Of a DNA stretch of 64,000 bases, positions 3,028-53,537 are shown one piece after another (position 1 is the stretch's first letter; every line of letters starts with the position of its first letter). The DNA is taken from the NCBI GenBank assembly GCA_050011565.1, contig JBEKIW010000001.1, forward strand, positions 677,855-741,854, written 5' to 3'. The stretch comes from Dehalococcoidia bacterium. Its GTDB lineage: Bacteria > Chloroflexota > Dehalococcoidia > GIF9 > UBA5629. Under the pieces are notes generated by a model. The model saw only the letters and a program-made list of their open reading frames with translations. It had not been told where the DNA came from and made no database searches. The position numbers and the translations under genes were made by a program.

Positions 3028-3109
3028 AAGGAGGCAAGCGGTCTCCGCCTTTTGCTTAGCCTGCTTTGGGGCCATGAGGTCGGAGGTTCAAATCCTCTCA
3101 CCCCGACCA
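3028..3109 (+). repeat. Copy 1 of an ~82-bp element: hairpin plus 3' half of tRNA-Pro(TGG) ending in CCA
   Basis: AAGGAGGCAAGCGGTCTCCGCCTTTT...TTTGGGGCCATGAGGTCGGAGGTTCAAATCCTCTCACCCCGACCA; no D-arm or 5' acceptor strand. Confidence 0.85.
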
Positions 3110-3161
3110 GGCAAGTCAGCAAGGGATTTCGCCTTCGAGTCTGCTTTTGAAAGGAGCGCAG

Positions 3162-3632: not shown

Positions 3633-3749
3633 CCGCTCCCAAATACAACTAAGGAGACTTCCTGCATCATGGGAGAGGGATTATTTTTATTCATTTACCG
3701 ATAAGAACTCATATAGTGAATCAACGTATTTAATACTGAGGGATACGAC

Positions 3750-27559: not shown

Positions 27560-27567
27560 GGAGGAAT

Positions 27568-28125
27568 ATGGTAGCTAAAACCTCGGCACAGGGAGGGCTG
27601 CCTTGGCATGTTGTTGAAGAGGCCATTAAACGTGAGAGTGAATGGCTGCGAAGTGTGGTCGTTCAGAGCGCTACTGAAAAAATGCCTGGTTGTGATGAAT
27701 GTCAATATACGTTTAGGAAAATCGCTCTTCTAATTATTACAGGTGAAGTACAAGCCAAGGAATTCACCGCTGAGGATGGACATGACTTGTGGGATGGTTT
27801 GACACAAAGGCATAGCATTGCAAAATCAGCATGGCATGGTGGCGATTGGCATAAAAAAATGATGGATGTGATTACTAAGTACTTTGAACGCGAGGGATTT
27901 GAAGTAATTCCAGAACCTTATCTTAGCAAAGGCCGAGCTGATCTTGGTATTTATAAGGATGGCTATATGGATCTGTTTATCGAAATCGGAACTACTTCTG
28001 TGTACAAGCTATGGTGGAATCTACAGATGTTGACAGATTGTAAAATTCTGCTGGTGACAGATGAGAGTCGGGCTATAGAATTTACCTGTCACGATGCGTA
28101 TGGTGACAAGATTCGCAGACTATAA
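27568..28125 (+). CDS. Hypothetical protein, possible PD-(D/E)xK nuclease fold
   Basis: C-terminal EVIPEP...GRADLG.....LFIEIG pattern; RBS GGAGGA. Confidence 0.55.
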   Translation: MVAKTSAQGGLPWHVVEEAIKRESEWLRSVVVQSATEKMPGCDECQYTFRKIALLIITGEVQAKEFTAEDGHDLWDGLTQRHSIAKSAWHGGDWHKKMMDVITKYFEREGFEVIPEPYLSKGRADLGIYKDGYMDLFIEIGTTSVYKLWWNLQMLTDCKILLVTDESRAIEFTCHDAYGDKIRRL

Positions 28126-28145
28126 AGAATAGGGCTTAATAAAGA

Positions 28146-29081
28146 ATGCTGCCTCATCTTGATGATTTTCTGTTGAACTTACAGGTGAACAAATACTCTC
28201 AGGAAACTGTATATAATTATGAGCGAGATTTAAAAGTTTTCGATACCTTCTTGACTGAAAGCAATATTGATTTCGAAAAACTCGATAAGAAGGCTATTAC
28301 CTACTATAAAAGCTATCTGGTTTCACGGGACCGCAAGACGGCAATCTTGGCTCAGCATGGTGATAAGGAGCTTGATTCGCGCTCTGTCAACCGGATGCTG
28401 TCAGCTATTCGCTCTTATCTGCACTACCTTATAGATATGGATTATCCTTGTCCACTGCCACCAGAGGCAATTAAGTTAACTAAGGCTGGCCGAAAGCACC
28501 CGCAAGTGGCTGAATTTGATGATTTAGTCAGACTGATCGAATCGCCAACTTCACTGGAATCAGACACTAAAGTAGCTTTAAGAAACCGGGCTATGTTGGA
28601 GGTATTATTTGCCACTGGTATGCGGATTTCCGAGCTATGCAACCTCAATCGTAACCAAGTCGATAACAATGGGCGTATATTTATAACTGGCAAAGGTAAG
28701 AAGCAGCTTTTTATCTATCTGACCCCAAGAGCCAAGCAGCACCTTGATAACTATCTTACCGTGCGAGATGATGTCGCTGCAGCCTTATTCGTCCCTTATG
28801 CCGGAAGAAATGTAGTCAAACCAAAGAGACGGATCTCCACGAACTATCTTCAGGAGCGAATCAAGAACTACCGAGAGAAGCTTAAAATAAACGTGCCTAC
28901 TTCAGCGCATTCGCTAAGGCACGGTTTCGCTATATATCTCGCTGAGGCAGGTGCTAATCCAGCGGCAATTCAGATTCTCCTTGGCCACGAATCTCTGGAT
29001 ACAACTACCCGCACGTTCATGCATCCGATAAATACGCTGAGGAGACACATAAAAAATTTCATCCTTTGGCATAGAGCGTAG
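28146..29081 (+). pseudogene. Second Xer-like tyrosine recombinase with a frameshift at the catalytic Tyr
   Basis: RNRAMLEVLFATGMRISEL, HSLRH, LGHESLDTTTR. Inserting one T after 29012 restores ...TTTRYVHASDKYAEETHKKFHPLA* (stop 29072-29074). Confidence 0.85.
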
Positions 29082-42216: not shown

Positions 42217-42293
42217 GGCGCATTCGTCTAGGGGTTTAGGACGCCGCCCTCTCAAGGCGGAGATCACGGGTTCGAATCCCGTATGCGCTACCA
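42217..42293 (+). tRNA. tRNA-Glu(CTC), integration site
   Basis: GGCGCAT/ATGCGCT acceptor, CCGCC-CT-CTC-AA-GGCGG, GGTTCGAATCCC, CCA. Confidence 0.96.
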
Positions 42294-42353
42294 AACCCCC
42301 TTCGTTAGATTCAATTTTTGTCCTTTATGTCAAATCTGCTAACAATCTGCTAA

Positions 42354-43517
42354 TTACAGGTCCCGCCGCTTCATTATTTCGTCAAATTTTCTGGCCGCTT
42401 CCTCGTCCAGGCCCGGCATGACGTGAGAATAGATATCCGCGGTCACATCAATGCCTGAGTGCCCTAACCTTTCAGATACCACCTTTAAATTAGTGCCGGC
42501 TAAAAGCATTAAGCTGGCATAGGTGTGGCGGGCATCATGCAGGCGGATCCGTTTGACACCGCATTTCTTGATTACCATAGTCCAGGCCCGGGTGACTGTA
42601 TTAGGTCGAAGCGGGCCCCCCTTAGATGTGCAAAATACCAAATCGCTATCGCCTTTTCTCTTGCCAAAAACCGTATCTTCCATTTTCTGAGATTTAAAAT
42701 GCTCTTTAAGAAGCAAAGTCAGAGAGGTTGGTATGGCTATTGACCGCCGGCTTGTCTTTGATTTCGGTTCGGCAAAAATGTACGTGCCCCCTTTGAGCTG
42801 GTGAAGGCCACGACTTATAGCGATACGGCCGTGCTGCAGGTCTATGTCGGTCCATTTCAAGCCCAGGAGCTCGGAGCGGCGCATTCCGGTGTAAAGCGCG
42901 GTGCAAAACGGTACATAATATGGCGTGTCTTTGGCCGCTCCAAGAAACTGGTTTATATCGTCCTGGGTCCAGATTTCCATTTCCTTGCGCATGACCCGAG
43001 GCAGATCAACCTTATCGGCTACGTTTTGATTTAACAGGTCTTTTTTAACCGCTGTCTGCAGCGCCTTATGAATAACCGAATGGTGAAACCGGACCGTATT
43101 AGCTGAATCTTTACCCTGGCCGCGGCCCCTGGCCATGATCATGTCGTAATGCTGTCTTAGGTGCGCCGCCCGGAGCTCGCTTAATTTAACATGGCCGAAT
43201 GCCGGAATAAAATAGGTTTCGATGATCCCCTGGTAACGCTCGAGGCTGCGCTGTGACAGTCTGTTTTTACAATAATCGTCAAGCCATTCCCGGAGATATC
43301 CGGCTACCGTCTTCTTGCCAGAATCAGGAAAACTGCCGCGGTCGATGCGCTGCAGTTCGTCTCTTAACCGGCGCTCAGCGTCTGCCTTTGTGCCGCGGAC
43401 CGTCATCCACTTCTGCCGATATTTGCCGGTGCCCGGGTCCAGCTGGCTAACGATAATGGTATAACTGCCGGCTGCCCGCTTTTTAATGCTGCCGGTGCCC
43501 CTTGCCCGTCTCTTCAT
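42354..43517 (-). CDS. int: Tyrosine integrase (phage/ICE type)
   Basis: Likely start MKRRARGTGSI at 43517; YTGMRRSELLGL, KSK, RLHDARHTYAS, RLGHS..VTADIYSH. Confidence 0.95.
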   Translation of the reverse strand: MKRRARGTGSIKKRAAGSYTIIVSQLDPGTGKYRQKWMTVRGTKADAERRLRDELQRIDRGSFPDSGKKTVAGYLREWLDDYCKNRLSQRSLERYQGIIETYFIPAFGHVKLSELRAAHLRQHYDMIMARGRGQGKDSANTVRFHHSVIHKALQTAVKKDLLNQNVADKVDLPRVMRKEMEIWTQDDINQFLGAAKDTPYYVPFCTALYTGMRRSELLGLKWTDIDLQHGRIAISRGLHQLKGGTYIFAEPKSKTSRRSIAIPTSLTLLLKEHFKSQKMEDTVFGKRKGDSDLVFCTSKGGPLRPNTVTRAWTMVIKKCGVKRIRLHDARHTYASLMLLAGTNLKVVSERLGHSGIDVTADIYSHVMPGLDEEAARKFDEIMKRRDL

Positions 43518-43560
43518 TTCAGTGGCCTGGCCAGCCTTAGTATATCCTTTAACCTTTTGC

Positions 43561-43610
43561 TTGTCGACATTTGACGACAAGTGACGACACTTGACGGCAG
43601 ATGACGGCGA
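43561..43610. repeat. Five tandem 10-bp direct repeats over the int promoter region
   Basis: TTGTCGACAT TTGACGACAA GTGACGACAC TTGACGGCAG ATGACGGCGA. Confidence 0.85.
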
Positions 43611-43614
43611 GTAG

Positions 43615-43881
43615 TTATTTCTCAAGAAATACCTCACTACGGCTTGCTACATCTACTACAGTAGCAGCAGTTCCCATGATTACATCTTTAACTTTTAACC
43701 GGTTGTCTTTCAAGATACCGAAAATATAAGCCGCGGAGCAGCCTAACTCTTCCGCCGCCGGGTCCACACTACCGTGCCTGTTAAGCGCCTCAATAACTTT
43801 TTTGAGCGATATATTCAGCCGGCGGCGCCCTAAACCCTGGACTTTAACCTTTTCGCCGCATTTTGGACATTCAACTTCCAT
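43615..43881 (-). CDS. Small protein with CxxC motif and Fis-like HTH
   Basis: MEVECPKCG...EAL..HGSV..AAEELGCS..YI. Confidence 0.7.
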   Translation of the reverse strand: MEVECPKCGEKVKVQGLGRRRLNISLKKVIEALNRHGSVDPAAEELGCSAAYIFGILKDNRLKVKDVIMGTAATVVDVASRSEVFLEK

Positions 43882-44452
43882 TTTTCTTAACCTTCACTGG
43901 CCTTTTATGTTTTGCTTGCAAAACCCTACGGGAATTGGTTTTTCTTCGCTGGTTATTCTTAGGTGGTTTTTCTTCAATGGTTCTTCTTAGAGGGTCTGTT
44001 TTAAGCCGATTGCGGTACCTGTTTTGAGTTGATTGCCTTACTTGTTTTAAGCCGATTGCGGTACCTGTTTTAAGCTGCGGTACTATTTTAACCTGTGGTA
44101 CTGATATAACCTGCGGTACCTGTTTTAAGTCGCAATATACTGCTTGATTCTTATCCCAAATATCGACAACGCTGATTATGTGGCGAACGTGCCCCCCATT
44201 AACCTCTTTTTTTATCCGAATTAACCTCTTTTTTTTGAGTTCCTGTTTAGCGCGACACACGGTATTTTTATTCATGTGGCATATGTGTGCGAGCCGATCC
44301 TGGCTTTGCCAGCAAGAGCCCCCCTCATCTTCCCCACAGACTCTTCTGAGATGTGCATAAAGACGAAAGCCGGCAGGTGTCAGCTTCATGTCATCGACAA
44401 GATGCGGGACCTGTGTAAAGTAGCTATGGTGTCCGTTATTTTGGTCCGTCAT
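43871..44452 (-). CDS. Replication initiator-like wHTH protein with internal iterons
   Basis: FTQVP.......L....FRLY..L......CW.SQ.RLA....M..NTV.RA..EL....LI; repeated GCGGTACCTGTTTT at 43997-44130. Confidence 0.75.
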   Translation of the reverse strand: MTDQNNGHHSYFTQVPHLVDDMKLTPAGFRLYAHLRRVCGEDEGGSCWQSQDRLAHICHMNKNTVCRAKQELKKKRLIRIKKEVNGGHVRHIISVVDIWDKNQAVYCDLKQVPQVISVPQVKIVPQLKTGTAIGLKQVRQSTQNRYRNRLKTDPLRRTIEEKPPKNNQRRKTNSRRVLQAKHKRPVKVKKNGS

Positions 44453-44651
44453 ACCCGGATCCCTCAGTCTGGTTTAAAAACTTTGTAAGTTTATCCCGCG
44501 GCACCAGGATGCGCCGGCCGAGGCGCTTCACCGGCAACTTGCCTTCCCTGATATATTTGAACGCCGTTGACTTGCCAATCCCCAAAGCCGCAGCTGCCTC
44601 TTCAACGGAAAGCACCAGGCGGTCAGTATTGATATCGGTTTTATTAACCAC
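44436..44651 (-). CDS. Excisionase-family HTH_17 DNA-binding protein
   Basis: LSVEEAAAALGIGKSTAFKYIREGKLPVKRLGRRILVP. Confidence 0.88.
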   Translation of the reverse strand: MVNKTDINTDRLVLSVEEAAAALGIGKSTAFKYIREGKLPVKRLGRRILVPRDKLTKFLNQTEGSGYDGPK

Positions 44652-44813
44652 CTAGGGTATTCCTTTTCTTCATGTCTCGCCCGCTGCTACCTGCAGCGTC
44701 CAGGAAGGATATATTGATTTCCTCTAAGCTAACCGAGCTGCGCCTTAAAAGCTCGCTTGCTGTATATTTTCCTGCCATCATGCTTTTCACCCGCTCAAAA
44801 ACATTCCTGACGA

Positions 44814-45116
44814 TTATTCTTTGGCTTTACCCAGGCCCCCCCCTACCCCACGGTCCGCCACTGCCGGCGTCGGGTCAAGTATAGGTTCGATTTTGCCGTG
44901 TATCCTGGCCGATTCCTCACGTTCAAACGATACATACTGCCTTTTCAATGGTCGAATTTGAATAGAAACGCTTTGACCCAGAAACTGTCTCAAGTAAAAA
45001 TCAGCCGGCAGGACCTCAGTTTGCCCCTCGAGACGAAAACCTTCCGCGGTAACCTCGCCCCGGTATACAACTGAGCCGCGCTCTAGAATATCTTTTGCCG
45101 TGTTCCCTGCCGCCAT
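44814..45116 (-). CDS. Hypothetical protein
   Basis: 100-aa ORF co-oriented with neighbouring element genes. Confidence 0.45.
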   Translation of the reverse strand: MAAGNTAKDILERGSVVYRGEVTAEGFRLEGQTEVLPADFYLRQFLGQSVSIQIRPLKRQYVSFEREESARIHGKIEPILDPTPAVADRGVGGGLGKAKE

Positions 45117-45217
45117 ACTTTCTTAGTGCCTCAGACCTTAGTCTCTACAAAAATGATTATTCCCTTTAATCCGCTGGCTTCTTACGGCCGTTGGTGGACC
45201 TTAACAGCCCCGGGTTA

Positions 45218-45790
45218 TCACTTCAGATTTGATAAAATCTCATTTTCCTGATTCGCGATCATAACGAGCAATCCCTGGGAAACATAAGGGATATCTATCG
45301 GCTCTGCGGTCGCGCCTTCAACAAATGAGTACACAGCCTGTTTATCTTTTAAAATCTCGAGGTTAGCACCGATGAGAGCTCCCGGCGCATCCGGAGCAAA
45401 CATTCTCTTCGCTCCATTCTTTAATCTCAAATATTCGGCAGTATAGAAAGCCAGCCGCGGATAACCGTCTATCATATCTCTCAGGTCTTCATCCCCCACC
45501 ACGTCACTATAGGATTTATAGATTTTACCTTCCAAATAAGTCCCCACTTTAACGACCCATCGCATTTTTGAAGGTGGTATTTGTTCTAGCCACATGAGAG
45601 TATGAATGGCATGTATTTTTTCAAGAGTGTCTTTAGGGTAATATGCGTGCGCACCTTTCCCGGCACCTTGAGAAACAGGCTGGTCGATGAGCTCCTCTTT
45701 AGCATAATTTATCATCGTTACATTGGTAATTGCCCTATTCACCTTGCTCAACTGAGAAATAATCTCTTTGCGGCTGATTAGGTCGTTCAT
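45218..45790 (-). CDS. MerR-like HTH-containing regulator (hypothetical)
   Basis: T..T...Y.KE.LI..P...G.G.G....YP...L..I pattern; RBS AAGGAG; consensus promoter upstream. Confidence 0.6.
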   Translation of the reverse strand: MNDLISRKEIISQLSKVNRAITNVTMINYAKEELIDQPVSQGAGKGAHAYYPKDTLEKIHAIHTLMWLEQIPPSKMRWVVKVGTYLEGKIYKSYSDVVGDEDLRDMIDGYPRLAFYTAEYLRLKNGAKRMFAPDAPGALIGANLEILKDKQAVYSFVEGATAEPIDIPYVSQGLLVMIANQENEILSNLK

Positions 45791-45819
45791 TTTGAGCTCC
45801 TTATATAAATCATTACTTT

Positions 45820-45848
45820 ATTATAAACCCGCACTTTATACTTGTCAA
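45820..45848 (-). promoter_or_regulatory. Consensus sigma70 promoter
   Basis: TTGACA-17bp-TATAAT on the minus strand. Confidence 0.8.
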
Positions 45849-45999
45849 TAGAGGCGTACCAGAAATTTAAAGCTAATGAGCTGCCGGAGCAGAAAAAATT
45901 TGTCAACTTCGCTAGTTCAGAGCCGGGTAGTGTATTATTTTGAAATCTGATATCATTGAAAACACTAATGTGTTAAACCTCGAGCGGAGTTAGAATGCT

Positions 46000-46287
46000 A
46001 TGGACAAAACATATACTGAATCCGAATTACGAGATAAGTTAAGCCGAAAGACAGAACGGATAACTGAAGGATTGATTGGTCGTTTAAGGGATGATGGACT
46101 TTTAAATGACCGCCATTTCAGGGTACAAAGTAAAATTGAGCCAAATGGTTCCATAACAATAGATGGTGAACCTATCCGACAAAGCGTTCAGGAATTCGTT
46201 CACGTTCTATTAGTAGAATTTTTGAAAGAACTCCTTGTCGCCCTTTTCGAAGAAGATGGTAACTCGGACATACCCTTTCATAATTAA
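46000..46287 (+). CDS. Hypothetical protein (the only plus-strand gene called in the element)
   Basis: 95-aa ORF with GGAG RBS, divergent from the regulator. Confidence 0.55.
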   Translation: MDKTYTESELRDKLSRKTERITEGLIGRLRDDGLLNDRHFRVQSKIEPNGSITIDGEPIRQSVQEFVHVLLVEFLKELLVALFEEDGNSDIPFHN

Positions 46288-46565
46288 CTATCCTTCAATG
46301 TGTTTAGCCGTTATATTGGCTGATTACCGGGGTTTGGCAAGCCAGCCAGCGCCGGCAAAGGTGTTGAAGCCGTTTATTGCTAAAACCAAGCCCCTACGAT
46401 GCGATTTCTGAGGCATCCAGGCTTTTACCCGCCTAATTCCCCATAAGACCACCCGGCAATGGAGAGGCTGCCAATTACCTCTCCAAAGCCAGGGGCTTAA
46501 GCGAGTATATCAAGGCCCGAAGGCCGTTGATACCTTCCCCTGGTCAATTATTTCTCAGGAAATAC

Positions 46566-46871
46566 CTAAGCATCGCGGTTTAAGTCCAGGAGGCCCCCTT
46601 TGCCCTTTTTGACAGCCGGCTTCCCGATAAACGCGGCACAGCATTTTTCAATAAACTCTGCCACTGAAATACCCTCTTTGTCGGCTTGTTGTTGGCAGGC
46701 AATAAATAGCTGCTGTTTATTTTTAAATGTTTTGGATTCGCCTCGCTTGGCAAAATATGCCTCGACACAATCGGCCACAAAGCGGGCGAGTTTTTGCCCT
46801 CTCTTTATCGCCTCTAATTCGCATTGTGAATAGAGGCCGAAATTGTTAAAAAAAATAATATCTTTTATCAT
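46566..46871 (-). CDS. Hypothetical protein, possible tandem ribbon-helix-helix
   Basis: Two similar halves: A...G..LARFV..C and A..EGISVAEFI..C. Confidence 0.5.
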   Translation of the reverse strand: MIKDIIFFNNFGLYSQCELEAIKRGQKLARFVADCVEAYFAKRGESKTFKNKQQLFIACQQQADKEGISVAEFIEKCCAAFIGKPAVKKGKGGLLDLNRDA

Positions 46872-46908
46872 GCTGGTTTATCCAGGAACCGCCCAGGGCC
46901 ACTCCACC

Positions 46909-47068
46909 CCGGGCGGTCCCCCATGCGAAACGTATATCAACACCAGAGCGAATTGGTGGTGATACCGAAGTTCGAGGGCCGCCCGGATAGAACTCAGACT
47001 AAAGCTCCGGGCGGTCCCCATGCTGAACGGATATATCAACGCCAGGAGTTGGCGGTGATACCGAAGTT
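46909..47068. repeat. Two ~62-bp direct repeats, each containing a hairpin, just downstream of the capsid gene
   Basis: CCGGGCGGTCCCC..ATGC...TATATCAAC[AG]CCAG...TTGG[TC]GGTGATACCGAAGTT at 46909-46972 and 47007-47068. Confidence 0.85.
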
Positions 47069-48266
47069 AAGCGCTATGCTCGGTCAGAAGCACCAGGGCT
47101 TTATTGGACGGTTTAATAAGGTATCCGCCTACCCTTCGATACACTATGAAACCCACTAACCCGGCCTCAGCATAGAGCTCATTAAGCCGTAGTATGGTTA
47201 TCTCCGAGCGATCGAGTATGCGGTAGCCATACTGGAAGTTGCCGAAGACCGCGATCACACCCTGGGTACCGGTCAGGTCTTCCATGTCATCCTGGTTATA
47301 CACAGGGTAGCCAAGGAATGTAGGCGGGGCACCGGCTATTAGAGACGGCTGCCAGAGGTAATTTCCGTAGTAACCGTCTGCTACCTCGGCCCGCAGCTTA
47401 CGGATCTCTAATTCTAACGTAGAGTTAAAAACCCAGGCTGAGCCCTGCCGGTACTTGGGCGGGACTTCATAGATGCACTGTAGAAAGTCATCGATAGTCA
47501 CCACCCCATCATCTGCAGTGGCCTTAGTGGCCGCCACCAGAGTCGGGTCTACGGTTATGCCGTCAGGTTCGTTTTCACTATGCCCCCTACCTTTGAGGAA
47601 GCCATAGTTTTCCTTTTCAGCTATTGCCCGGCCAAAGGAATCGGACATAAAGTTAACCAGGTCATAGTCTGAGTCTTCGAGCTCATCTCTGCCTACCTTA
47701 ACGAGCCCGGAGAGGTCCTCGATGTATTTGTAATCCTCCGAGGGCGCGGGCGTGGCTTCGGTGATTGCAGCTCCGGTTTCGAGCTTACCCCAGTTCACTT
47801 CGGCCTCGGTTATGTCACGCACCAGTATTCGGTCCTTAGTAATCGTGCGTTGGCTGGCGAGCTGGCGGACTACTACAAATTTAGCCAAGCTTCGCTGCAG
47901 TTCCTCTTCGATAGCCGGCGAGACCAGGTAGCCGCCGGTAGAATCCTCTACAAGCGCCCTTTCCTCGTCCTGAGTGATGCCGGTTTTCCCTTTGCGTATG
48001 TAGTTTAGGAAAGCTCGGTCCTCATCGGCGAGATAGATGCCTTTTCCACCTCTTCCACCACCGGGTGCGGTAGCCATTTCCAGGCTGTTCTGCATTTTTC
48101 CCTTGTCTATGCGAACAGTCAGGTCATCGACCTCAGCTATTAGGTTTTTGTATTCCGTGTCCTCACCTTCAGACATGCCCCTATGCTCTGCATTGTCAAG
48201 AAGCTCACGAGCTTTTGCAAGAAGCTCCGTTCTTTTCCTTTGCATTGCTGGAATATTTTGTAACAC
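47067..48266 (-). CDS. HK97-family major capsid protein
   Basis: Coiled-coil delta domain, RAF..YIR.G, GGYLV, F.KG.G....PDGI, GNYLWQP, T.LGYPV, FGNF..GY.I.DR, GLVGF...RRVGG; RBS AAGGAGG. Confidence 0.93.
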   Translation of the reverse strand: MLQNIPAMQRKRTELLAKARELLDNAEHRGMSEGEDTEYKNLIAEVDDLTVRIDKGKMQNSLEMATAPGGGRGGKGIYLADEDRAFLNYIRKGKTGITQDEERALVEDSTGGYLVSPAIEEELQRSLAKFVVVRQLASQRTITKDRILVRDITEAEVNWGKLETGAAITEATPAPSEDYKYIEDLSGLVKVGRDELEDSDYDLVNFMSDSFGRAIAEKENYGFLKGRGHSENEPDGITVDPTLVAATKATADDGVVTIDDFLQCIYEVPPKYRQGSAWVFNSTLELEIRKLRAEVADGYYGNYLWQPSLIAGAPPTFLGYPVYNQDDMEDLTGTQGVIAVFGNFQYGYRILDRSEITILRLNELYAEAGLVGFIVYRRVGGYLIKPSNKALVLLTEHSA

Positions 48267-48536
48267 TTTGATACCTCCTTAGTTTTTAAACAAAAGTTTT
48301 CACTCGCCTGAGCCACTGTTAGCTCAAGAGCTCCCCTTGAGACCAATTCCTCAGCCTCAAGACAAACCCCCACGCTCCCAAAGGAATCAAGCTCGTCTGC
48401 CGGCAACCAATTCGACCTGGCTCCGGCCTTATTAAGTTAGTGCCCGAGGAGTACAGAACGGCTTGAACAATATCATGGAAAAAAAGAGCCGCCTGCCTAT
48501 TCAGGGCATTTATTCGGACAGACTCCTATCAAATAT

Positions 48537-48692
48537 TCACCTTGATTTTCTCGATCTTCTTTCCTTAACAAGCTTTTTATAAGCCTGAAGAACAGCTGAT
48601 AACCCACCATGCCGCGATTGTCTGTACGTTCCGTTAAGAATATGTTGCTCAATGGACTTTTTGTTGCTTCCTCCCGAACCAGGTCCCCCCAT
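48537..48692 (-). CDS. 51-aa ORF resembling the N-terminus of P27-family (HK97-type) terminase small subunits
   Basis: Manual translation MGGPGSGGSNKKSIEQHILNGTYRQSRHGGLSAVLQAYKKLVKERRSRKSR*, with RBS AAAGGAGGT; below the ORF-track cutoff. Confidence 0.6.
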   Translation of the reverse strand: MGGPGSGGSNKKSIEQHILNGTYRQSRHGGLSAVLQAYKKLVKERRSRKSR

Positions 48693-48884
48693 TTAATTTA
48701 CCTCCTTTTCTGGTTTTGCTGCCCACGGTTTTGCTGCCCATGGTCAAATCGGGTTTTTTTGTCCGAATTAACCGGAAAATCAGCCAGCAAAAGTTTTGCT
48801 AACTGCTTTATTTCCCCAGTTTTTGAAGCTAAATTACCCATTTTGCCACCATATATTAATTTCTATCTTCATGATTTATCTTCC

Positions 48885-48966
48885 TGTTTTGCTGGCTGTG
48901 TGTGCGCGAAACTGCCCACTCGGTTCTGAAGCTTTGAAGCTGCAGCGATTTGATGGGGCTATCCCT
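48885..48966 (-). other. Putative cos packaging region
   Basis: Minus strand GGGATAGCCCCATCAAATCGCTGCAGC...AGAACCGAGTGGGCAGTTTCGCGCACAC...GCAAAA resembles the GGG..AAATC.CT...ACCG...CGCG pattern recalled upstream of terS in HK97-like cos phages. Confidence 0.5.
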
Positions 48967-49004
48967 GGTCAAATTATTTCTTGAGAAATACCTTACGATC
49001 CTAA

Positions 49005-49124
49005 TTACCTGGCCGGCCGTGTTCTCCGTCTTTTTATCTTCGGCCTCTCCGGCAGTTCAGAGTATAGCCAGCCACAAAGAACCAGACACCAGATTAAGAA
49101 ACAGAATATAACTATTATTTCCAT
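49005..49124 (-). CDS. 39-aa single-TM peptide with basic tail
   Basis: MEIIVIFCFLIWCLVLCGWLYSELPERPKIKRRRTRPAR*; RBS AAGGAAGG. Confidence 0.45.
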   Translation of the reverse strand: MEIIVIFCFLIWCLVLCGWLYSELPERPKIKRRRTRPAR

Positions 49125-49150
49125 AAGTCACCTTCCTTTGCTGACAGTCT

Positions 49151-50299
49151 TTAGACATAAGATTTCCTTAACTGTTGCAGGCGATAAAGTTCTTTGGCTA
49201 TTCGCTGGACGTCGGCCTCTTCCCTGACTATCAGTTGAGAAACGGTAATATTAACTCCGGAGCCGCCGGCCGGTGATATAACTTCACCACCATGGACCAT
49301 TGCAAGTTGAGGCTCCCCGATTGAGCCGGGGACTATACCGCCGGATTGATAACCCTGAAGATGAGCTAGATAATTCTGCTGGCTAATCTCGGCCTGGCTC
49401 ATGCCACCAGTGGAAACCGCTCCACCGCTTTCAGAACCTGGACTTGCCCACAATTGGCTGAGTCCACCAGTAAACCATGATGGCATATTCAAGATTTTCG
49501 ACAAATCCAGACGGCTTAATGTACTATTCAGTTTATTCATCCAATCGACAGCTTGCTTAATATAGCCTACAAGCGTAGCCAGGTCTCCAATGAAGGATGT
49601 CAGACTAGGGAAAACGGTCGCTGCAAGTGCACCAGTTAATCCCTGCCAGGCGGTGTGGAGGTCTTCAGTAGCCCCTTTGGTATCTGCAAGAGCAGTTACT
49701 TGAGCATCGCTGAGAATTCCTAACTCGTGTAACCTGCTAATATAGGTGTCCAAGTTACCTATCATAGGTAGCAATTCTGTACCGGAACGCCCAAAAATCT
49801 CCATGGCCAAAGCGGCGCGTTGAGTTGGGTCAGGAATATTATTTAATGCCCGAGCAATCGCTTTGAATTGGCTTTCCGGGTCCATTTGTTGCAGGTCATT
49901 GAAGGATAATCCTAATTGCTGGAATGTTCTTACAGCTGTCACCGAACCATTCTCTGCATCAAGCAAAACCCTGGCGAATTGCTGCATCCCTACTCGCACC
50001 TGGTCAAGAGATGAGCCCCCTTTTTCTGCCGCGTAGCCTAGTTCCTGAAGTGCCTGAGTAGACATACCGGTGCGTATGGCTGTATTTGTAAGGTCCTCGC
50101 CCAGGTTCATAAGATTAGACGCGATTGCCCCCATGCCTGCTACAACAGCAGCCATGCTCATTTCGGGTAGAAGCCCCCCTAATAAAGAATTCAGCTTGCC
50201 AATAGAACTTTGGGCTGAGGACTGCAGGTCCTTCATGCCTTGCTGAAATTCTTCAGTTTTGGCGCCTATGACAACAAAAAGTTTGCTTAATTCGTTCAT
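49151..50299 (-). CDS. Short phage tail tape-measure-like protein (382 aa)
   Basis: N-terminal L.V.IGA....F..G; core TGMST.ALQEL.YAA and D...RAALAMEIFGRSG.ELLP; C-terminal Y.SGGIVPG..G.P.LA.VHGGE...REEADV..IA. Confidence 0.85.
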   Translation of the reverse strand: MNELSKLFVVIGAKTEEFQQGMKDLQSSAQSSIGKLNSLLGGLLPEMSMAAVVAGMGAIASNLMNLGEDLTNTAIRTGMSTQALQELGYAAEKGGSSLDQVRVGMQQFARVLLDAENGSVTAVRTFQQLGLSFNDLQQMDPESQFKAIARALNNIPDPTQRAALAMEIFGRSGTELLPMIGNLDTYISRLHELGILSDAQVTALADTKGATEDLHTAWQGLTGALAATVFPSLTSFIGDLATLVGYIKQAVDWMNKLNSTLSRLDLSKILNMPSWFTGGLSQLWASPGSESGGAVSTGGMSQAEISQQNYLAHLQGYQSGGIVPGSIGEPQLAMVHGGEVISPAGGSGVNITVSQLIVREEADVQRIAKELYRLQQLRKSYV

Positions 50300-50574
50300 T
50301 TAATTCCCCTTTCCTTTTTAAAAAGGCGGAAGGCTTTCTTTAGCCCTTTTACTACTTCGCGGTAATGTGAAATAAGAAGCTTCTTTGCTTCTTTAATGGT
50401 CAATGCCGGATCATCCTGGACAAGCCCTCCCCATAACAAAACAACGGCATGATATGGCAGACTTGATATTTCAGGCTTCAATTTAATGCCGGTTGTCTCT
50501 TCAAATAGACCCAAGGTTATAAGATTGAGGCGGAAGCGCCGTTTTTTGTCCAGTTTCATTGTAACTTCTGCCAC
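50296..50574 (-). CDS. Phage tail assembly chaperone-like protein
   Basis: KLDK.R..RL....L..FEE.TG...LLWGGL...DP.LT......L; stop overlaps the tape-measure start (ATGA). Confidence 0.7.
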   Translation of the reverse strand: MAEVTMKLDKKRRFRLNLITLGLFEETTGIKLKPEISSLPYHAVVLLWGGLVQDDPALTIKEAKKLLISHYREVVKGLKKAFRLFKKERGIK

Positions 50575-50637
50575 TTTTAAATCTCCTCAAGGCGGCCTGT
50601 TTGACCGCCCCTAATTATTTCTCAAAAAATATCTTGG

Positions 50638-50907
50638 TTACAATTGCCGGTTTATCGCTTTGGCCACGCCGTAGACATGCTGCCCCTTTAAACTGTCAGA
50701 ACCAGTAAATTTTAGTAGCCCTGGCTTTTTTGTAGCCAGCTCGTTAACAAACAAAGTGTCCCCGGCTTTCGGCGCCGCTGCCGGGTCGAAAACAACGATA
50801 TCGCCCTCAAATAAAACAGGTTCCGCGCAATGCCCTACACATCTGACGGCAATTAGTGAATGGCCATCTGCCAGGTCTGCCGGTATGAAAGTGGTCCCTA
50901 TAGTCAT
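50638..50907 (-). CDS. Stand-alone S24 (LexA/UmuD/CI C-terminal) peptidase-like domain
   Basis: AVRCVGHCAEP.L.EGDIVV.DP...P..GD...V......LK...YGV; no HTH. Confidence 0.65.
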   Translation of the reverse strand: MTIGTTFIPADLADGHSLIAVRCVGHCAEPVLFEGDIVVFDPAAAPKAGDTLFVNELATKKPGLLKFTGSDSLKGQHVYGVAKAINRQL

Positions 50908-51011
50908 GTTCCCCCCTTGCTAATTAAGTTGCTAATATACTGCAAAACACTAGATAGCACAGCGAAGTTTTGAATACTACAGAAGCGTATGTAGGTTTTA
51001 CTGGTCTAGGT

Positions 51012-52859
51012 TCAAATCCCTAGAATCCCGTATGCGCTACCATTCATAACTTTTCGGCACTTAGTTGCTAACTCACATTCCTCATCGGCTTGTGATTTAC
51101 TTAATTGCACCTTATCACTTTGGATATCTGATTGCACCTGACCAAGATTTAGCTGGCAGCTTACCCTCATAGTCTTGAGATCTTCGGAGGGATAAACCTT
51201 GATGCCCAGCTTGGAGATAACGTCCAGTCGCTCTTCGAAGGTGGCTCCATCGAGATTGCTATCCCTCAGTACCTTCAATTCCTCTCTTAATGCCTCCAAG
51301 TCGGTGCAACCAGAGACCGAGTCCTCTAGTTCTTCTCTGAGTCGTTTAATCTCTTTTTCCGCTTTGGCTATCGTCGCCCGGTGTTCGTCGATACGCATCT
51401 TGGCTTCGTACCGGTTGTACAGTCCACCCTCGAAGCCCTCTTGAACCTTAGTAATTCTGGCCTCCGCCTGTGATGTCTTCAGCAACTGAAGTCTGAGTAG
51501 CTTTTCCACATTCTCGTCCTGCAATAGTTCCGTGGAGAGCTGTTGCTCAACCCAGGCATCAGTCCTAAGCCACGAGCAAATGTCCTGCCATACCAGTTGA
51601 TCCCATGTGCCAGGGACGAATTTCCTGTAATTGCAGGGGTGCTCAACCCAAGGCTTGAAGTATCGGGAACAGTAGTAGTAGACACCATTCAGGTGGCCCG
51701 CACGTCTAACCACCATTGGCTGGCAACACCTGGGGCAATATATGCGATTGCGAAGTAAGGCCTGGATTGTCTTCCCCTGCTTACCTCTTCCCCTTCCCCT
51801 CTGGGCAATAGTAGCGTTGGCCTTTTGCCATAGTTCTTCACTCACCAAGGTTGGAACTTTGAATTCTACCCAATCATCCTTGGGTTTAGGTCTGAGAAGG
51901 GTCCTCTTAATCTCTGCAGTTATGTCAACTAGAGGTCTATCGGGATTTGGCACTCTGGCATTGGCGTTATAATAGTGAGTCCCTGTGTAGCAGTGATGAC
52001 GGACGATGGCAGAAACCCCGGCAGGCGACCATTTGCCACCATCTGGGGCCTTGATACCCATCTCATTCAGTTTGTTGGCCACCCAGAAGAGGCTGAGTCC
52101 TTCACTGCCAACCCAGGTAAAGATCTGAATCACAACCCAGGCTGGACTCGGATAAATGAGTTGACCGTCAGGATCAGACTCGTCAAGTTCCCACCAGGCA
52201 CGCTTGATGATAACCTTGCCGTCAGGGGCTATCTCCCTGTCTGCCTTGTAGCGATAACCGTAAGCGGCGCGGCTTGCCGGCACCATGCCTTTGAGTACCC
52301 TTCCTATGTTGCCCGCCCTGGCGCTGTCTCTGTTTGTTTGGACCCTGAGAGCATTGGCCTTAGCCATGATCAGGCGGCTGGTGCTACTGGCCCAATCCGC
52401 TCCACTAGGCACATCGCCGAAGACAAACTCCACACCATAGTGCGTGCATTCCCTCTCGAAGATAAGCTGCTGTCCCGGATCCATTGTCAGCCGTCCCTGC
52501 AAAGGTATCAGCACTCCCTGAATCCTACGCTTGGCTATTAACTCCTTCCTGAGGAACGCCATATTTTTCCGGTCAAGGTATTCGCTGCTCTCATGGTCAA
52601 CAACAATATATTCCTGCGGCACGGTTAAGGCTCTCTGCTTCGCCATGCGTGCGCAGGTAAGCAGATACTCAGGTATGCGATTGTTTTGCGCCTGCTCCAC
52701 CAAGCTCTGCCGGACGTAAGCCGCCCACCAGGTAGGCTTCATAAGGTCACAGCTTTTGACGCCGAAACCATCCTCATACCCTGCTGCCTTGGCTGCTTCG
52801 TCGATGTAACCATCCAACTGATCTCGGCTCATAACCTCTGTCTCTTTGTCATGCTTCAT
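51012..52859 (-). CDS. Large serine recombinase (resolvase + recombinase + zinc ribbon + coiled coil)
   Basis: AAYVRQS, GRL, AAYGY, Y.G, P.LVSEELW, LL...IYCPRC...YYYC. Confidence 0.92.
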   Translation of the reverse strand: MKHDKETEVMSRDQLDGYIDEAAKAAGYEDGFGVKSCDLMKPTWWAAYVRQSLVEQAQNNRIPEYLLTCARMAKQRALTVPQEYIVVDHESSEYLDRKNMAFLRKELIAKRRIQGVLIPLQGRLTMDPGQQLIFERECTHYGVEFVFGDVPSGADWASSTSRLIMAKANALRVQTNRDSARAGNIGRVLKGMVPASRAAYGYRYKADREIAPDGKVIIKRAWWELDESDPDGQLIYPSPAWVVIQIFTWVGSEGLSLFWVANKLNEMGIKAPDGGKWSPAGVSAIVRHHCYTGTHYYNANARVPNPDRPLVDITAEIKRTLLRPKPKDDWVEFKVPTLVSEELWQKANATIAQRGRGRGKQGKTIQALLRNRIYCPRCCQPMVVRRAGHLNGVYYYCSRYFKPWVEHPCNYRKFVPGTWDQLVWQDICSWLRTDAWVEQQLSTELLQDENVEKLLRLQLLKTSQAEARITKVQEGFEGGLYNRYEAKMRIDEHRATIAKAEKEIKRLREELEDSVSGCTDLEALREELKVLRDSNLDGATFEERLDVISKLGIKVYPSEDLKTMRVSCQLNLGQVQSDIQSDKVQLSKSQADEECELATKCRKVMNGSAYGILGI

Positions 52860-53245
52860 CTCTTCTCCCTCCTCCTGAACAATGATTCCTGAATCCTCTG
52901 CAGGCGCTGCGCTTCATCGTTGGAAAGCCTCAGTTTACCTCGGCACAGCTGGCACTGTTCTAGAATCTGCTTCCAGTTGTCCTTCCAGCTTTCATCCTCA
53001 CATTTGCCTCTCATCCATGGTTCGGGCTGGCTCGGCACCAATCGGCGGTCAAACCCCAGGGGACAATTGGCAAGTCCCTGCTTCACTTGATGGAAAGCGA
53101 CCGGACAGCCCTGGATGCCGGGGAATTCCCAAAGCGTCACGGTCTCCCCCTCTGGAATGCCCAGAATCTGTCTCGCTAATTCTCCGATGCCCGTATCCAC
53201 TTTTTCACCCAGTCTTCCGCTTTTTCTGGCGTCCTTTTCCTTCAA
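52856..53245 (-). CDS. Hypothetical Cys-rich protein, translationally coupled to the recombinase
   Basis: ATGA overlap with the recombinase; CP...CP...C...CQLC. Confidence 0.55.
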   Translation of the reverse strand: MKEKDARKSGRLGEKVDTGIGELARQILGIPEGETVTLWEFPGIQGCPVAFHQVKQGLANCPLGFDRRLVPSQPEPWMRGKCEDESWKDNWKQILEQCQLCRGKLRLSNDEAQRLQRIQESLFRRREKR

Positions 53246-53537
53246 CAGCCTCTATCAGTATGTCCAAAGCTCGATGCAGGGCTTCAAATTTCTTGATAGC
53301 CTCGCCAAAGTCCGCAATCGCATTCCCTTCGATAGCTCTAGCTAACCTCGTTTCAACATCAACGCCCAGAATCTCCAGGCGGTGCAGGTCAGCAAAGAGA
53401 CTTACACTCCGCCGTATAACCTCGGAAACACTGCCATAGCCGAACTCATCACGGAGCCATTCCATGTCTTGGTGCTGCTCCGCTGGCAGCCTTAAGGCAA
53501 TAAGCTCATCATGCTTAGTTACTCTGCCCATCAACAT
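53205..53537 (-). CDS. Ribbon-helix-helix-like regulator
   Basis: IALRLP.......E.L....GY.SVSEVIR; TTGACA-17-TATACT promoter at 53541-53569 immediately upstream (near-leaderless). Confidence 0.65.
   Translation of the reverse strand: MLMGRVTKHDELIALRLPAEQHQDMEWLRDEFGYGSVSEVIRRSVSLFADLHRLEILGVDVETRLARAIEGNAIADFGEAIKKFEALHRALDILIEAVEGKGRQKKRKTG

What the first reader, a model, noticed from the sequence alone, without database searches (positions are those of the whole stretch)
42274..51042. Compact phage satellite carrying its own capsid and a tail-length module (chaperone plus short tape measure) but no portal, TerL, protease or tail tube
Seen: an ~8.75-kb unit bounded by a perfect 20-bp tRNA-Glu 3' repeat, with intact-looking int, xis, rep, HK97-fold capsid, tail chaperone and 382-aa tape measure. 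Nearly all genes are on one strand, several have strong RBSs, and no decay is visible. Known: PICIs and SaPIbov5-type satellites remodel helper capsids, and cf-PICIs encode a whole head but no tail genes. Inference: this element borrows portal, TerL, protease and tail proteins from an HK97-like siphophage while setting both head size (own capsid) and tail length (own tape measure). That two-part size hijack is uncommon, and I do not know of it in Dehalococcoidia.
Basis: partly seen in the sequence, partly recalled or inferred. Interest (0 to 1): 0.92.

Follow-up and report, generated by a model that had tools for sequence, protein, structure and literature searches.

The report
Small capsid-and-tape-measure phage satellite
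An 8.75-kb element inserted at a tRNA-Glu gene carries its own phage capsid and tail-ruler genes but no packaging motor, portal or tail tube, and it belongs to a wider lineage of similar mini-elements that most likely ride on helper phages.

Summary
The unit is real. tRNA-Glu and a perfect 20-bp repeat (42274-42293 / 51023-51042) bound 8.75 kb holding a tyrosine integrase, Xis-type HTH, an O-like replication initiator with iterons inside its gene, an HK97 capsid gene, a 382-aa tape-measure protein and a 92-aa gene in the chaperone position. It has no portal, TerL, protease or tail tube, and the 2.0-Mb genome has none either.

Comparison favours a satellite over a one-off decayed prophage. In an MCP tree, all 19 capsid genes without portal or protease upstream form one clade (support 100) that excludes all 55 phage capsids. 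Eight relatives are att-bounded at tRNAs; seven measure 7.5-11.5 kb and one 14.8 kb. Capsid dN/dS in the clade is 0.05-0.25. Two other full-length short tape measures exist (364 and 386 aa).

A 51-aa stub of a small terminase sits in the 884-bp gap. No excision junction was seen in contigs, and no helper was identified.

Novelty is moderate. Satellites with their own tape measure (PLEs, EPIPs) and portal-less mini HK97 elements are already in print. This is a new variant, found mainly in Dehalococcoidia-type genomes.

The parts
42217..42293 (+). tRNA-Glu (ctc), the integration target
   Evidence: ARAGORN
42274..42293 (.). attL core: the last 20 nt of the tRNA
   Evidence: Perfect 20-bp direct repeat, (family D7); read directly
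51023..51042 (.). attR core, an identical 20-mer
42354..43637 (-). Tyrosine integrase. The likely true start is the ATG at 43517; the ORF extends to 43637.
   Evidence: PF00589 1.7e-27, phrog_1 5e-81. It is 92.5% identical to the integrase at the same tRNA-Glu in a same-genus genome, with dN/dS 0.07.
43615..43881 (-). 88-aa ORF of unknown function
   Evidence: No family hit
43871..44452 (-). Replication initiator (HTH_36, lambda-O-like) with direct repeats (candidate iterons/ori) inside its own 3' half, at 43936-44130
   Evidence: PF13730 2e-08; phrog_270 5.4e-11; phrog_678 and phrog_345 'O-like'. Repeat families D1, D2 and D4. The ori function is inferred.
44436..44651 (-). Excisionase / AlpA-type HTH_17 protein
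   Evidence: PF12728 5.3e-13; phrog_66. Homologues occur in mini-elements L006, L019 and L021.
44814..45116 (-). 100-aa ORF of unknown function
   Evidence: No family hit
45218..45790 (-). 190-aa ORF, first gene of the early operon; weak MerR-like leads only
   Evidence: Atlas search, (a lead, not a test); no HMM hit
45820..45848 (-). Consensus sigma-70-type promoter (12 of 12 positions) upstream of the 190-aa ORF
   Evidence: pattern match only
46000..46287 (+). 95-aa ORF, the only plus-strand gene, divergent from the early operon; candidate repressor (inference)
   Evidence: Position only; no family hit
46566..46871 (-). 101-aa protein, 63-64% identical to a small gene lying between portal and protease in complete phages
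   Evidence: tblastn to L057/L162 (5759-6052) and L155; gene maps. Weak Arc-like hit, phrog_582 8.2e-4.
47067..48266 (-). HK97-type major capsid protein, 399 aa
   Evidence: PF05065 2e-45; TIGR01554 3.1e-68. It keeps all 54 invariant columns of a 20-sequence alignment. Member of the mini-element clade.
48537..48692 (-). 51-aa stub of a small-terminase gene (N-terminal about 43 aa only), with a strong Shine-Dalgarno site
   Evidence: 59% identity to residues 10-43 of a 216-aa ORF directly upstream of TerL in L169. No other 28-90-aa homologue in the 5.8-billion-protein search. No Pfam hit.
49005..49124 (-). 39-aa hydrophobic ORF just after the tape measure; function unknown
   Evidence: Read, translated; no family hit
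49151..50299 (-). Short tape-measure protein, 382 aa
   Evidence: phrog_9483 2.8e-24 and 20 other families listed, most annotated tape measure. The C-terminal about 70 aa align to the extreme C-termini of phage TMPs at 46-62%. Full-length short homologues of 364 and 386 aa exist.
50296..50574 (-). 92-aa protein in the tail-assembly-chaperone position; its stop overlaps the tape-measure start
   Evidence: Homologues lie after the tail tube and before F29+TMP in L082 and L088, and before the TMP in L005. AF2 pLDDT 83. BFVD best E 0.1, with several chaperone-named rows; not significant.
50638..50907 (-). 89-aa ORF, weakly like the C-terminal (S24) part of phage repressors
   Evidence: phrog_4 E 0.011; not significant
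43616..43631 (.). 16-bp palindrome TATTTC-N4-GAAATA, copy 1 of 4 (others at 46549, 48975 and 50616)
   Evidence: All 4 window matches lie in the island; 0.35 expected by chance. Eight matches in the whole 2.0-Mb genome. Also found in mini-elements L006, L015 and L019.

Best explanation
The unit is an integrated phage satellite, a member of a lineage of tRNA-integrating mini-elements of about 7.5-11.5 kb (one of 14.8 kb). These elements kept a phage capsid gene but not the portal, protease or terminase motor. Proposed mechanism (inferred): when an HK97-like siphophage infects the cell, Int and Xis excise the island at the 20-bp core. The O-like initiator replicates it from the iterons inside its own gene. 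The structural operon then makes the island's own MCP, a chaperone-like protein and a short tape measure. These combine with the helper's portal, S78 protease, terminase, tail tube and tail tip to build chimeric particles: a shell of satellite MCP and a tail whose length is set by the 382-aa ruler. At the 1.6 A per residue quoted in the PLE preprint, that is about 61 nm, against about 78-127 nm for the 488-793-aa tape measures of the related phages. The tape measure's phage-like C-terminus would dock on the helper's tail tip. Because this copy's TerS is reduced to a stub, packaging would have to use the helper's terminase on a cos or pac site; I guess this lies in the retained terS 5' region. 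Shown: the anatomy, the lineage, its boundaries and purifying selection on it. Inferred: every functional step.
For: Anatomy. Lineage: of 92 MCPs of 300 aa or more from the fetched loci, 19 lack portal or protease within 2.5 kb upstream despite at least 2.5 kb of upstream sequence. All 19, plus 11 with too little context, form one clade (SH-aLRT 100) containing 0 of the 55 MCPs that follow a protease or portal. 17 of the 19 loci hold a tyrosine integrase and at least 17 hold a RepB-primase/helicase-like protein. Boundaries: 8 relatives are flanked by exact tRNA-derived repeats of 37-43 bp, giving seven elements of 7.5-11.5 kb and one of 14.8 kb. No ORF in them is large enough or similar enough to be portal or TerL. 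Selection: MCP dN/dS is 0.05-0.25 in the 8 clade pairs with unsaturated dS, and the tape measure of L015/L019 gives 0.28. This island's integrase against its same-site relative gives 0.07. The tape measure is not a random truncation: its N-terminal 260 aa and the C-terminal GGIV...HGGE motif are shared end to end with proteins of 364, 386 and 354 aa. A tape measure next to the MCP recurs in 5 of 19 mini-element loci, plus fragment L103. Other members carry TerS (L013, L018, L087) or HNH (L005, L103), which are typical satellite packaging genes. Helper candidates: complete siphophages with TerL, portal-MuF, S78 protease, MCP, tail tube, TMP and Dit form the sister group and occur in Dehalococcoidia/Dehalococcoidales MAGs. 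One MAG holds both a complete phage (L086) and a mini-element remnant (L105). Precedent: PLE satellites use their own TAC and TMP and have tails about 10 nm shorter, as their TMP length predicts (10.1101/2025.01.29.635557, section 7).
Against: No helper: the genome (99.2% complete, 8 contigs) has no portal or TerL family hit and no other phage structural gene. No activity seen: in contigs of three public runs the island assembles at the same depth as its flanks, and no joint skips or circularises it. Contigs cannot show rare forms, so this is weak evidence. This copy carries a scar, a 51-aa TerS stub in an 884-bp gene-poor gap. It lacks the F7 replication protein of its relatives and has the integrase co-oriented at the end of the operon instead of divergent. 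The chaperone assignment rests on synteny and a non-significant fold match. No close relative of this particular element exists (best MCP identity 64-68%), so selection on this copy's own MCP and tape measure could not be measured because dS is saturated. That an MCP alone, without its own portal and protease, can redirect assembly has not been demonstrated for any system I read about.
Confidence: 0.58

Rival explanations
1. This copy is a dead remnant: a satellite, or a deletion derivative of a prophage, that can no longer be mobilised and is simply carried by the chromosome.
For: There is a truncated TerS stub with no short homologue elsewhere, and an 884-bp gap with only tiny ORFs. No helper genes are in the genome. 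No excision joint appears in contigs, and identical pieces occur at chromosomal depth in a run from another study. The lineage does decay in place: a 1.9-kb att-bounded remnant with integrase and MCP fragments (L003/L104), and integrase and MCP fragments at a tRNA-Thr in L105.
Against: The att repeats are perfect. Integrase, Xis, Rep, MCP, tape measure and the 92-aa gene are all open, and the MCP keeps all 54 invariant columns of the 20-sequence alignment. Integrase dN/dS is 0.07. The short tape measure is a conserved full-length form. Cos-type satellites need no TerS of their own (general knowledge of P4 and cos-SaPIs, as summarised in PMC10690885, introduction passages).
Confidence: 0.22
2. 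The structural genes act mainly as a defence. A foreign MCP and a short tape measure would poison the assembly of an infecting siphophage (dominant-negative decoys), protecting the host population whether or not the island is itself transferred.
For: Satellites commonly interfere with helper assembly. PLE tail manipulation is coupled to defence. Tail-assembly interference is described as a common defence strategy (PMC11364771, search-listing abstract only). Relatives carry defence-like cargo: DUF4917 in L070 and a methylase-Mrr fusion in L084.
Against: No PADLOC hit for any of the 8 small island-region ORFs tested. The conserved integrase-Xis-Rep-att apparatus and the TerS or HNH in relatives point to transfer, not defence alone. 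This reading does not exclude the satellite reading.
Confidence: 0.1
3. It is an autonomous, non-canonical mini HK97 entity, or an encapsulin-like compartment, that needs no tailed helper. This has been raised for portal-less mini genomes.
For: PMC13669383 (sections 9 and 14) describes integrase-bearing mini genomes with an MCP and no portal, terminase or tail, and discusses helper-independent alternatives. One large group there averages 8.75 kb.
Against: This MCP hits only the phage capsid family PF05065 / TIGR01554, not an encapsulin family. Its sister group is ordinary siphophage MCPs. The island carries a tape measure, a chaperone-like gene and a terminase stub, which only make sense with a tailed, terminase-packaged particle.
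Confidence: 0.05

Closest known systems
PLE satellites of Vibrio cholerae (chimeric tails; bioRxiv 10.1101/2025.01.29.635557, section 7 read)
   Same: The satellite encodes its own tail assembly chaperone and a shorter tape measure next to each other, and uses the helper's tube and other tail parts. Tail length follows the satellite's tape measure.
   Different: PLEs use the helper's MCP, resized by the scaffold TcaP, and also encode a baseplate hub. Their helper is a myophage. No sequence relationship was tested here, and the host phylum differs.
EPIPs of Mycolicibacterium (PMC12822802, passages read)
   Same: Small satellites that encode both an MCP and a tape measure and lack most capsid and tail genes. 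They are the closest known match in gene content.
   Different: EPIPs have a serine integrase, TerS, a scaffold, a head-tail adaptor and a stopper, and they show longer tails. The island has a tyrosine integrase, no adaptor, stopper or scaffold hit, only a TerS stub and a short tape measure.
Capsid-forming PICIs (cf-PICIs; abstract of 10.1101/2022.09.08.507074 in a search listing; description in PMC10690885 introduction)
   Same: An integrative satellite with its own HK97-type MCP that depends on the helper for tails.
   Different: cf-PICIs encode the whole head and packaging set (HNH, TerS, TerL, portal, protease, MCP, connectors) and no tail genes. The island has only the MCP from that set, plus two tail-assembly genes.
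Portal-less 'mini' HK97 genomes from metagenomes (PMC13669383, sections 8, 9 and 14 read)
   Same: Size of 5-11.6 kb; integrase, sometimes excisionase, and replication genes; an HK97 MCP; no portal or terminase. Occasionally a single tail gene (one ORF annotated as tape measure in the encapsulin-enriched group).
   Different: The group described in detail is from human gut, with encapsulin-like MCP domains and a scaffold gene. This MCP is a plain PF05065 capsid. The element is anchored in a host chromosome with defined att sites and sits in a clade sister to complete siphophages. The supplementary tables, which might list relatives, were closed.
Classical PICIs / SaPIs
   Same: tRNA- or site-specific integration, integrase-Xis-regulator-replication modules, TerS in some relatives, and accessory cargo at one end.
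   Different: Classical PICIs resize helper capsids with small scaffold-like proteins and carry no MCP or tape measure. Here the integrase is co-oriented at the end of the operon.

Membership tests
Phage satellite (general sense) | Small mobile element with its own integration/excision and replication functions | tested here: met
   8.75 kb between perfect att repeats, with integrase, HTH_17 Xis-type protein and O-like initiator with internal repeats
Phage satellite (general sense) | Lacks the gene set needed to build a virion on its own | tested here: met
   No portal, TerL, protease, tail tube, tail tip or lysis hit in the unit
Phage satellite (general sense) | Induced by, and packaged into particles made with, a helper phage | not testable with these tools
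   No helper in the genome. Only contigs of public runs were available, and they showed no joints.
cf-PICI | Encodes the full head and packaging set: HNH, TerS, TerL, portal, protease, MCP and head-tail connectors | tested here: not met
   Only the MCP and a 51-aa TerS stub are present
Classical PICI | Integrase at one end, divergent repressor/regulator pair, pri-rep with ori, TerS and/or capsid-size genes | tested here: inconclusive
   A divergent pair (95-aa ORF against the 190-aa ORF, with a consensus promoter) and Rep with repeats are present. The integrase is co-oriented, TerS is truncated and no cpm-like gene was identified.
HK97-type major capsid protein (PF05065 / TIGR01554) | Full-length match above the curated cut-offs | tested here: met
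   155.8 bits against a cut-off of 24.2; 230.7 bits against 27.5
Tape measure protein | Match to tape-measure families; conserved N- and C-terminal ends; gene preceded by a chaperone | tested here: met
   21 PHROG families listed, best 2.8e-24, most annotated tape measure. The C-terminus aligns to the ends of phage TMPs. A chaperone-position gene lies upstream. Caveat: TIGR01760 scores 26.4 bits, below its 28.8 cut-off, and there is no Pfam hit.
Tail assembly chaperone (gpG-like) | Family or fold match; -1 frameshift extension (gpGT) | tested here: inconclusive
   No HMM hit. PDB had no match at E <= 0.001. BFVD best E was 0.1, with chaperone-named rows. There is no room for a frameshift extension because the stop overlaps the TMP start. 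Only synteny supports the assignment.
Encapsulin | Encapsulin-family shell protein with a cargo operon and no mobile-element context | tested here: not met
   Only PF05065 was hit; the gene is flanked by integrase, Rep and tape measure
EPIP / PLE families | Sequence relationship to their core genes | not tested
   No EPIP or PLE sequences were fetched; the comparison is by the gene content described in the papers

The most novel reading that the evidence does not exclude
A widespread lineage of minimal satellites, seen mainly in Dehalococcoidia-type genomes and anoxic sediment or peat metagenomes, hijacks siphophages by replacing only the shell subunit and, in a subset, the tail ruler. One to three genes (MCP alone, or MCP with a tape measure and sometimes a chaperone) would build chimeric virions on a helper's portal, protease, terminase and tube, setting head and tail dimensions independently of the helper.
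Probability: 0.33. Interest if true: 0.8.

Novelty: new variant of a known kind. Interest (0 to 1): 0.6.

Why it matters
If these are working satellites, they show the smallest structural toolkit yet proposed for taking over a tailed phage: one capsid gene without its portal or protease, and in some members a ruler and chaperone for the tail. That would give a host-anchored, att-defined example of the portal-less mini HK97 genomes now being pulled from metagenomes, whose lifestyle is an open question. It also points to candidate helpers, the sister siphophages found in the same host class. For Dehalococcoidia-type bacteria, whose tailed phages are hardly studied, it marks a route of gene transfer and of phage interference. 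The MCP clade and the conserved palindrome give simple markers for finding more members.

Tried and rejected
A single-protein pattern scan of genome contigs with the MCP found no relative. The alignment-based scan did.

IMG/VR: of 80 loci, 76 show protease and/or portal just upstream of the MCP and 4 start at the MCP. None has an integrase or F7 hit. The virus catalogue therefore added only complete-phage relatives.

A search for an HNH or other remnant in the 48267-49150 gap, using all proteins of L004, L005, L015, L019 and L103, found nothing. Pfam at E <= 10 on four small gap ORFs found nothing useful.

Family searches (Pfam, PHROGs, NCBIfam, PADLOC) left the 88-, 89-, 92-, 95-, 100- and 190-aa ORFs unnamed. 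The Atlas gave only MerR-like leads for the 190-aa ORF.

Fold of the 92-aa protein: the PDB had no match at E <= 0.001, and BFVD had none at E <= 0.001.

Empty-site test: one same-genus genome (G011) has tRNA-Glu followed by unrelated genes. GlgC relatives were not found next to the tRNA, so the right-hand boundary could not be confirmed by synteny. G005 has the same integrase at the same tRNA but other cargo, and its contig ends 1.85 kb on. No other island DNA was found in G005, which is 90% complete.

Reads: no RNA holder is listed. Laying the contigs of three runs gave no joint across or around the island, and depth equal to the flanks. Contigs drop rare forms, so this says nothing about absence.

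The encapsulin reading was rejected (Pfam hit only PF05065). Relation to the Dehalococcoides IME1 elements was rejected: they are 21-28 kb and lack tailed-phage hallmarks (10.64898/2026.09.15.751708, abstract and passages).

Literature searches for a description of such elements in this phylum: 'Dehalococcoidia, prophage, capsid, integrase' returned 2 papers, and 'Chloroflexota, phage satellite' matched 5 papers, of which 3 were listed. None of the listed papers describes them. The tables of PMC13669383 might list relatives of this MCP.

Full report
**What is there.** ARAGORN finds tRNA-Glu(ctc) at 42217-42293. Its last 20 nt recur perfectly at 51023-51042, 8749 bp away. Between the two copies almost every gene is on the minus strand. 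In the direction of transcription the order is:
- an 89-aa ORF, weakly like the S24 part of repressors (phrog_4 E 0.011);
- a 92-aa ORF whose stop overlaps the next start;
- a 382-aa tape-measure protein (21 PHROG families listed, best 2.8e-24, most annotated tape measure; TIGR01760 at 26.4 bits, just under its 28.8 cut-off);
- an 884-bp gene-poor stretch;
- a 399-aa HK97 major capsid protein (PF05065 2e-45, TIGR01554 3.1e-68) with an AAGGAGG site before its GTG start;
- a 101-aa ORF;
- one divergent 95-aa ORF on the plus strand;
- a consensus sigma-70-type promoter, 12 of 12 positions;
- 190-aa and 100-aa ORFs;
- an HTH_17 excisionase-type protein (5.3e-13);
- an HTH_36 / lambda-O-like replication initiator (phrog_270 5.4e-11), whose 3' half contains three families of direct repeats at 43936-44130;
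- an 88-aa ORF;
- a tyrosine integrase (PF00589 1.7e-27, phrog_1 5e-81).

No ORF matches portal, TerL, prohead protease, tail tube, tail tip or lysis genes.

**What lies around it.** To the right of attR sits a 615-aa large serine recombinase whose last ten codons run through the repeat. It is followed by two small ORFs and a glucose-1-phosphate adenylyltransferase-like host gene. I read this as an older element, or its remnant, next to the tRNA, with the 8.75-kb unit inserted between the two. Contigs of public runs show two alleles about 9% apart and doubled depth over this recombinase.

**Is it a lone wreck or one of a kind?** The genome (2.0 Mb, 8 contigs, 99.2% complete) has one MCP and one tape measure, both in this island. 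It has no Phage_portal, TerL_ATPase or Terminase_6N hit. A tblastn with every recurrent protein family of the fetched phage loci found no other structural gene. Among 76 other genomes of the taxonomic family, only one has a match, and that is a 116-aa fragment. Public protein data hold many relatives at 45-68% identity.

I fetched 80 metagenome loci and 24 genome loci with an MCP alignment, called ORFs and clustered them. Two architectures appear. One is a standard siphophage: TerL, a portal-MuF fusion, S78 protease, MCP, connector, tail tube, tape measure and Dit (Pfam). The other is small: a tyrosine integrase, often a divergent small gene, an HTH, a 400-650-aa RepB-primase/helicase-like protein, sometimes TerS (L013, L018, L087) or HNH (L005, L103), and then the MCP, followed by host genes or accessory cargo.

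**Phylogeny.** I labelled each of the 92 MCPs of 300 aa or more by context:
- P (55): protease or portal within 2.5 kb upstream;
- S (19, including the window): none, despite at least 2.5 kb of upstream sequence;
- unknown (18): too little upstream sequence.

In an IQ-TREE (LG+G4, quick search) all 19 S rows plus 11 unknowns form one clade with SH-aLRT 100 and no P row inside. The window's nearest rows are L004, L005 and L006. In IMG/VR, 76 of 80 related loci have protease or portal upstream of the MCP, the other 4 begin at the MCP, and none has an integrase nearby. The closest relatives of this capsid gene are therefore all in mini-elements, and they share one origin.

**Boundaries.** Eight mini-elements have both ends on their contig, flanked by exact 37-43-bp repeats of part of a tRNA gene:

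| Locus | tRNA | Element size |
|---|---|---|
| L004 | Arg | 9.3 kb |
| L010 | Lys | 7.5 kb |
| L014 | Arg | 7.8 kb |
| L070 | Phe | 7.7 kb |
| L084 | Thr | 8.4 kb |
| L087 | Arg | 8.2 kb |
| L015 | Ala | 11.5 kb |
| L013 | Arg | 14.8 kb |

None contains an ORF that could be a portal or TerL. Pfam on ten of the largest unnamed ORFs (184-498 aa) gave DUF4917, a methylase-Mrr fusion and a BpsA-like domain, and nothing structural. The lineage also decays in place. G061 holds a 1.9-kb att-bounded remnant with integrase and MCP fragments (L003/L104), and L105 holds integrase and MCP fragments next to a tRNA-Thr.

**Selection.** By Nei-Gojobori, MCP dN/dS within the clade is 0.05-0.25 in the 8 pairs where dS is not saturated. 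The tape measures of L015 and L019 give 0.28. The island's integrase is 92.5% identical to one at the same tRNA-Glu in a same-genus genome (G005), with dN/dS 0.07. Similarity stops at the integrase start, and G005 carries other cargo there, so the int-att module is exchanged between elements. The island's own MCP and tape measure have no relative close enough for a meaningful ratio. The MCP does keep all 54 invariant columns of a 20-sequence alignment.

**The tail genes.** The tape measure's first ~260 residues align with the N-terminal parts of PHROG tape-measure profiles and with the tape measures of L004 and L005. Its last ~70 residues align with the extreme C-termini of phage tape measures, for example residues 597-667 of 673 in L088, at 46-62% identity. 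Two database proteins of 364 and 386 aa align end to end at 40% and 37% identity. The short form is therefore a recurring full-length type, not a random truncation. Complete tape measures in the mini-elements are 354, 382, 452, 732 and 792 aa. Those of the closer siphophage group are 488-793 aa.

A tape measure beside the MCP occurs in 5 of the 19 S loci, plus fragment L103. It is upstream of the MCP in all of these except L004.

The 92-aa protein has ten relatives in the 1.84-billion-representative search, one of them essentially itself. In two complete phages its homologue lies just after the tail-tube genes and two genes before the tape measure, and in L005 directly before it. The AF2 model (pLDDT 83) matched nothing in the PDB. 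In BFVD it matched only weakly (best E 0.1), with several rows named tail assembly chaperone. The chaperone reading is reasonable but rests on position.

The 101-aa gene after the MCP is 63-64% identical to a small gene lying between portal and protease in three phage loci, two of which are the same contig fetched twice.

**The scar.** In the 884-bp gap a 51-aa ORF with a strong Shine-Dalgarno site (48537-48692, minus strand) matches residues 10-43 of a 216-aa ORF at 59% identity. That ORF lies directly upstream of TerL in phage locus L169. The conserved TerS core (residues ~90-205, shared with other phage loci) is absent from the window. No other protein of 28-90 aa resembles the stub among 5.8 billion sequences. 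I read it as a truncated small-terminase gene, so 'no decay visible' does not hold. Whether the retained 5' end marks a packaging site is a guess.

**Regulatory motif.** The palindrome TATTTC-N4-GAAATA occurs four times in the 64-kb window, all in the island and each just downstream of a gene end, against 0.35 expected. There are eight copies in the whole genome. It recurs in mini-elements L006, L015 and L019, three of the four loci that either share the HTH_17 gene or are close kin of one that does. It is a candidate operator; this was not tested.

**Activity.** Three public runs hold the island, and two of them may be its source. Their contigs cover it at the depth of the flanks and show no joint that skips or circularises it. 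A run from another study holds identical pieces at chromosomal depth. Contigs cannot reveal rare forms, so this neither supports nor excludes excision.

**Comparison with what is known:**
- cf-PICIs carry the whole head and packaging set and no tail genes (PMC10690885, introduction passages). The island fails that definition.
- MulchRoom and MiniFlayer carry terminases and portal as well as the MCP (same paper).
- VEIMEs carry no MCP (PMC9618062, passages).
- PLEs encode their own chaperone, tape measure and hub. They incorporate them into chimeric tails that are about 10 nm shorter, as their length predicts, and they need them for transduction (10.1101/2025.01.29.635557, section 7).
- EPIPs encode MCP, scaffold, TerS, adaptor, stopper and a tape measure (PMC12822802, passages).
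- Mini HK97 genomes of 5-11.6 kb with integrase and MCP but no portal, terminase or tail were reported from metagenomes, with satellites as one hypothesis. In that paper, 4.3% of the small genomes with MCPs carry a tail gene, usually just one (PMC13669383, sections 8, 9 and 14).
- Searches for such elements in Dehalococcoidia or Chloroflexota found none among the listed papers.

**Verdict.** The satellite reading is the best supported, at the level of the lineage. For this copy it is likely but unproven, and the TerS stub raises the chance that the copy is crippled. It is a new variant of a known kind: a satellite that keeps the MCP alone from the head module and adds a chaperone-like gene and a short tape measure.

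Noticed in passing
window 51012-53537: A 615-aa large serine recombinase (Recombinase plus Zn-ribbon domains) lies directly right of attR. Its last ten codons read through the att repeat and would otherwise run into the tRNA-Glu antisense strand. Two small ORFs follow. It is probably an older element or remnant at the same tRNA. Contigs of public runs show two alleles about 9% apart and doubled depth here.
   Followed up: partly
window 43616, 46549, 48975, 50616: A 16-bp palindrome, TATTTC-N4-GAAATA, occurs four times, only in the island (8 copies in the whole 2-Mb genome), each just after a gene end. It recurs in related mini-elements L006, L015 and L019. It is a candidate operator for a conserved regulator.
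   Followed up: partly
L131 (G005:C133) 1808-3903: A same-genus genome has a 92.5%-identical integrase at the same tRNA-Glu, but it is followed by a different HTH protein and a second tyrosine-recombinase-like gene. The int-att module is therefore shared between otherwise unrelated cargoes.
   Followed up: partly
window 26672-29075: Two further tyrosine-recombinase-like genes lie here (tblastn with integrases of the mini-elements), next to a G+C dip to 0.38 at 29-30 kb. This may be another mobile element.
   Followed up: no
own genome: C1 about 29.2, 129.5 and 453.7 kb; C2 about 141.9 kb; C3 about 42.3 and 271.2 kb: Six places match only the C-terminal Mu-F-like domain (about 100 aa) of the phage portal-MuF fusion proteins, with no portal part. 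They look like stand-alone MuF-domain genes of unknown role.
   Followed up: no
L070 7279-8280; L084 4165-5328: Related mini-elements carry accessory genes at their ends: a DUF4917 protein and a DNA methylase-Mrr nuclease fusion. These look like defence cargo, as in other satellites.
   Followed up: no
window 51009-51022: Just inside attR lies GGTTCAAATCCCTA, which resembles a tRNA T-arm. It may be the trace of a longer, now degenerate, homology between attP and the tRNA.
   Followed up: no
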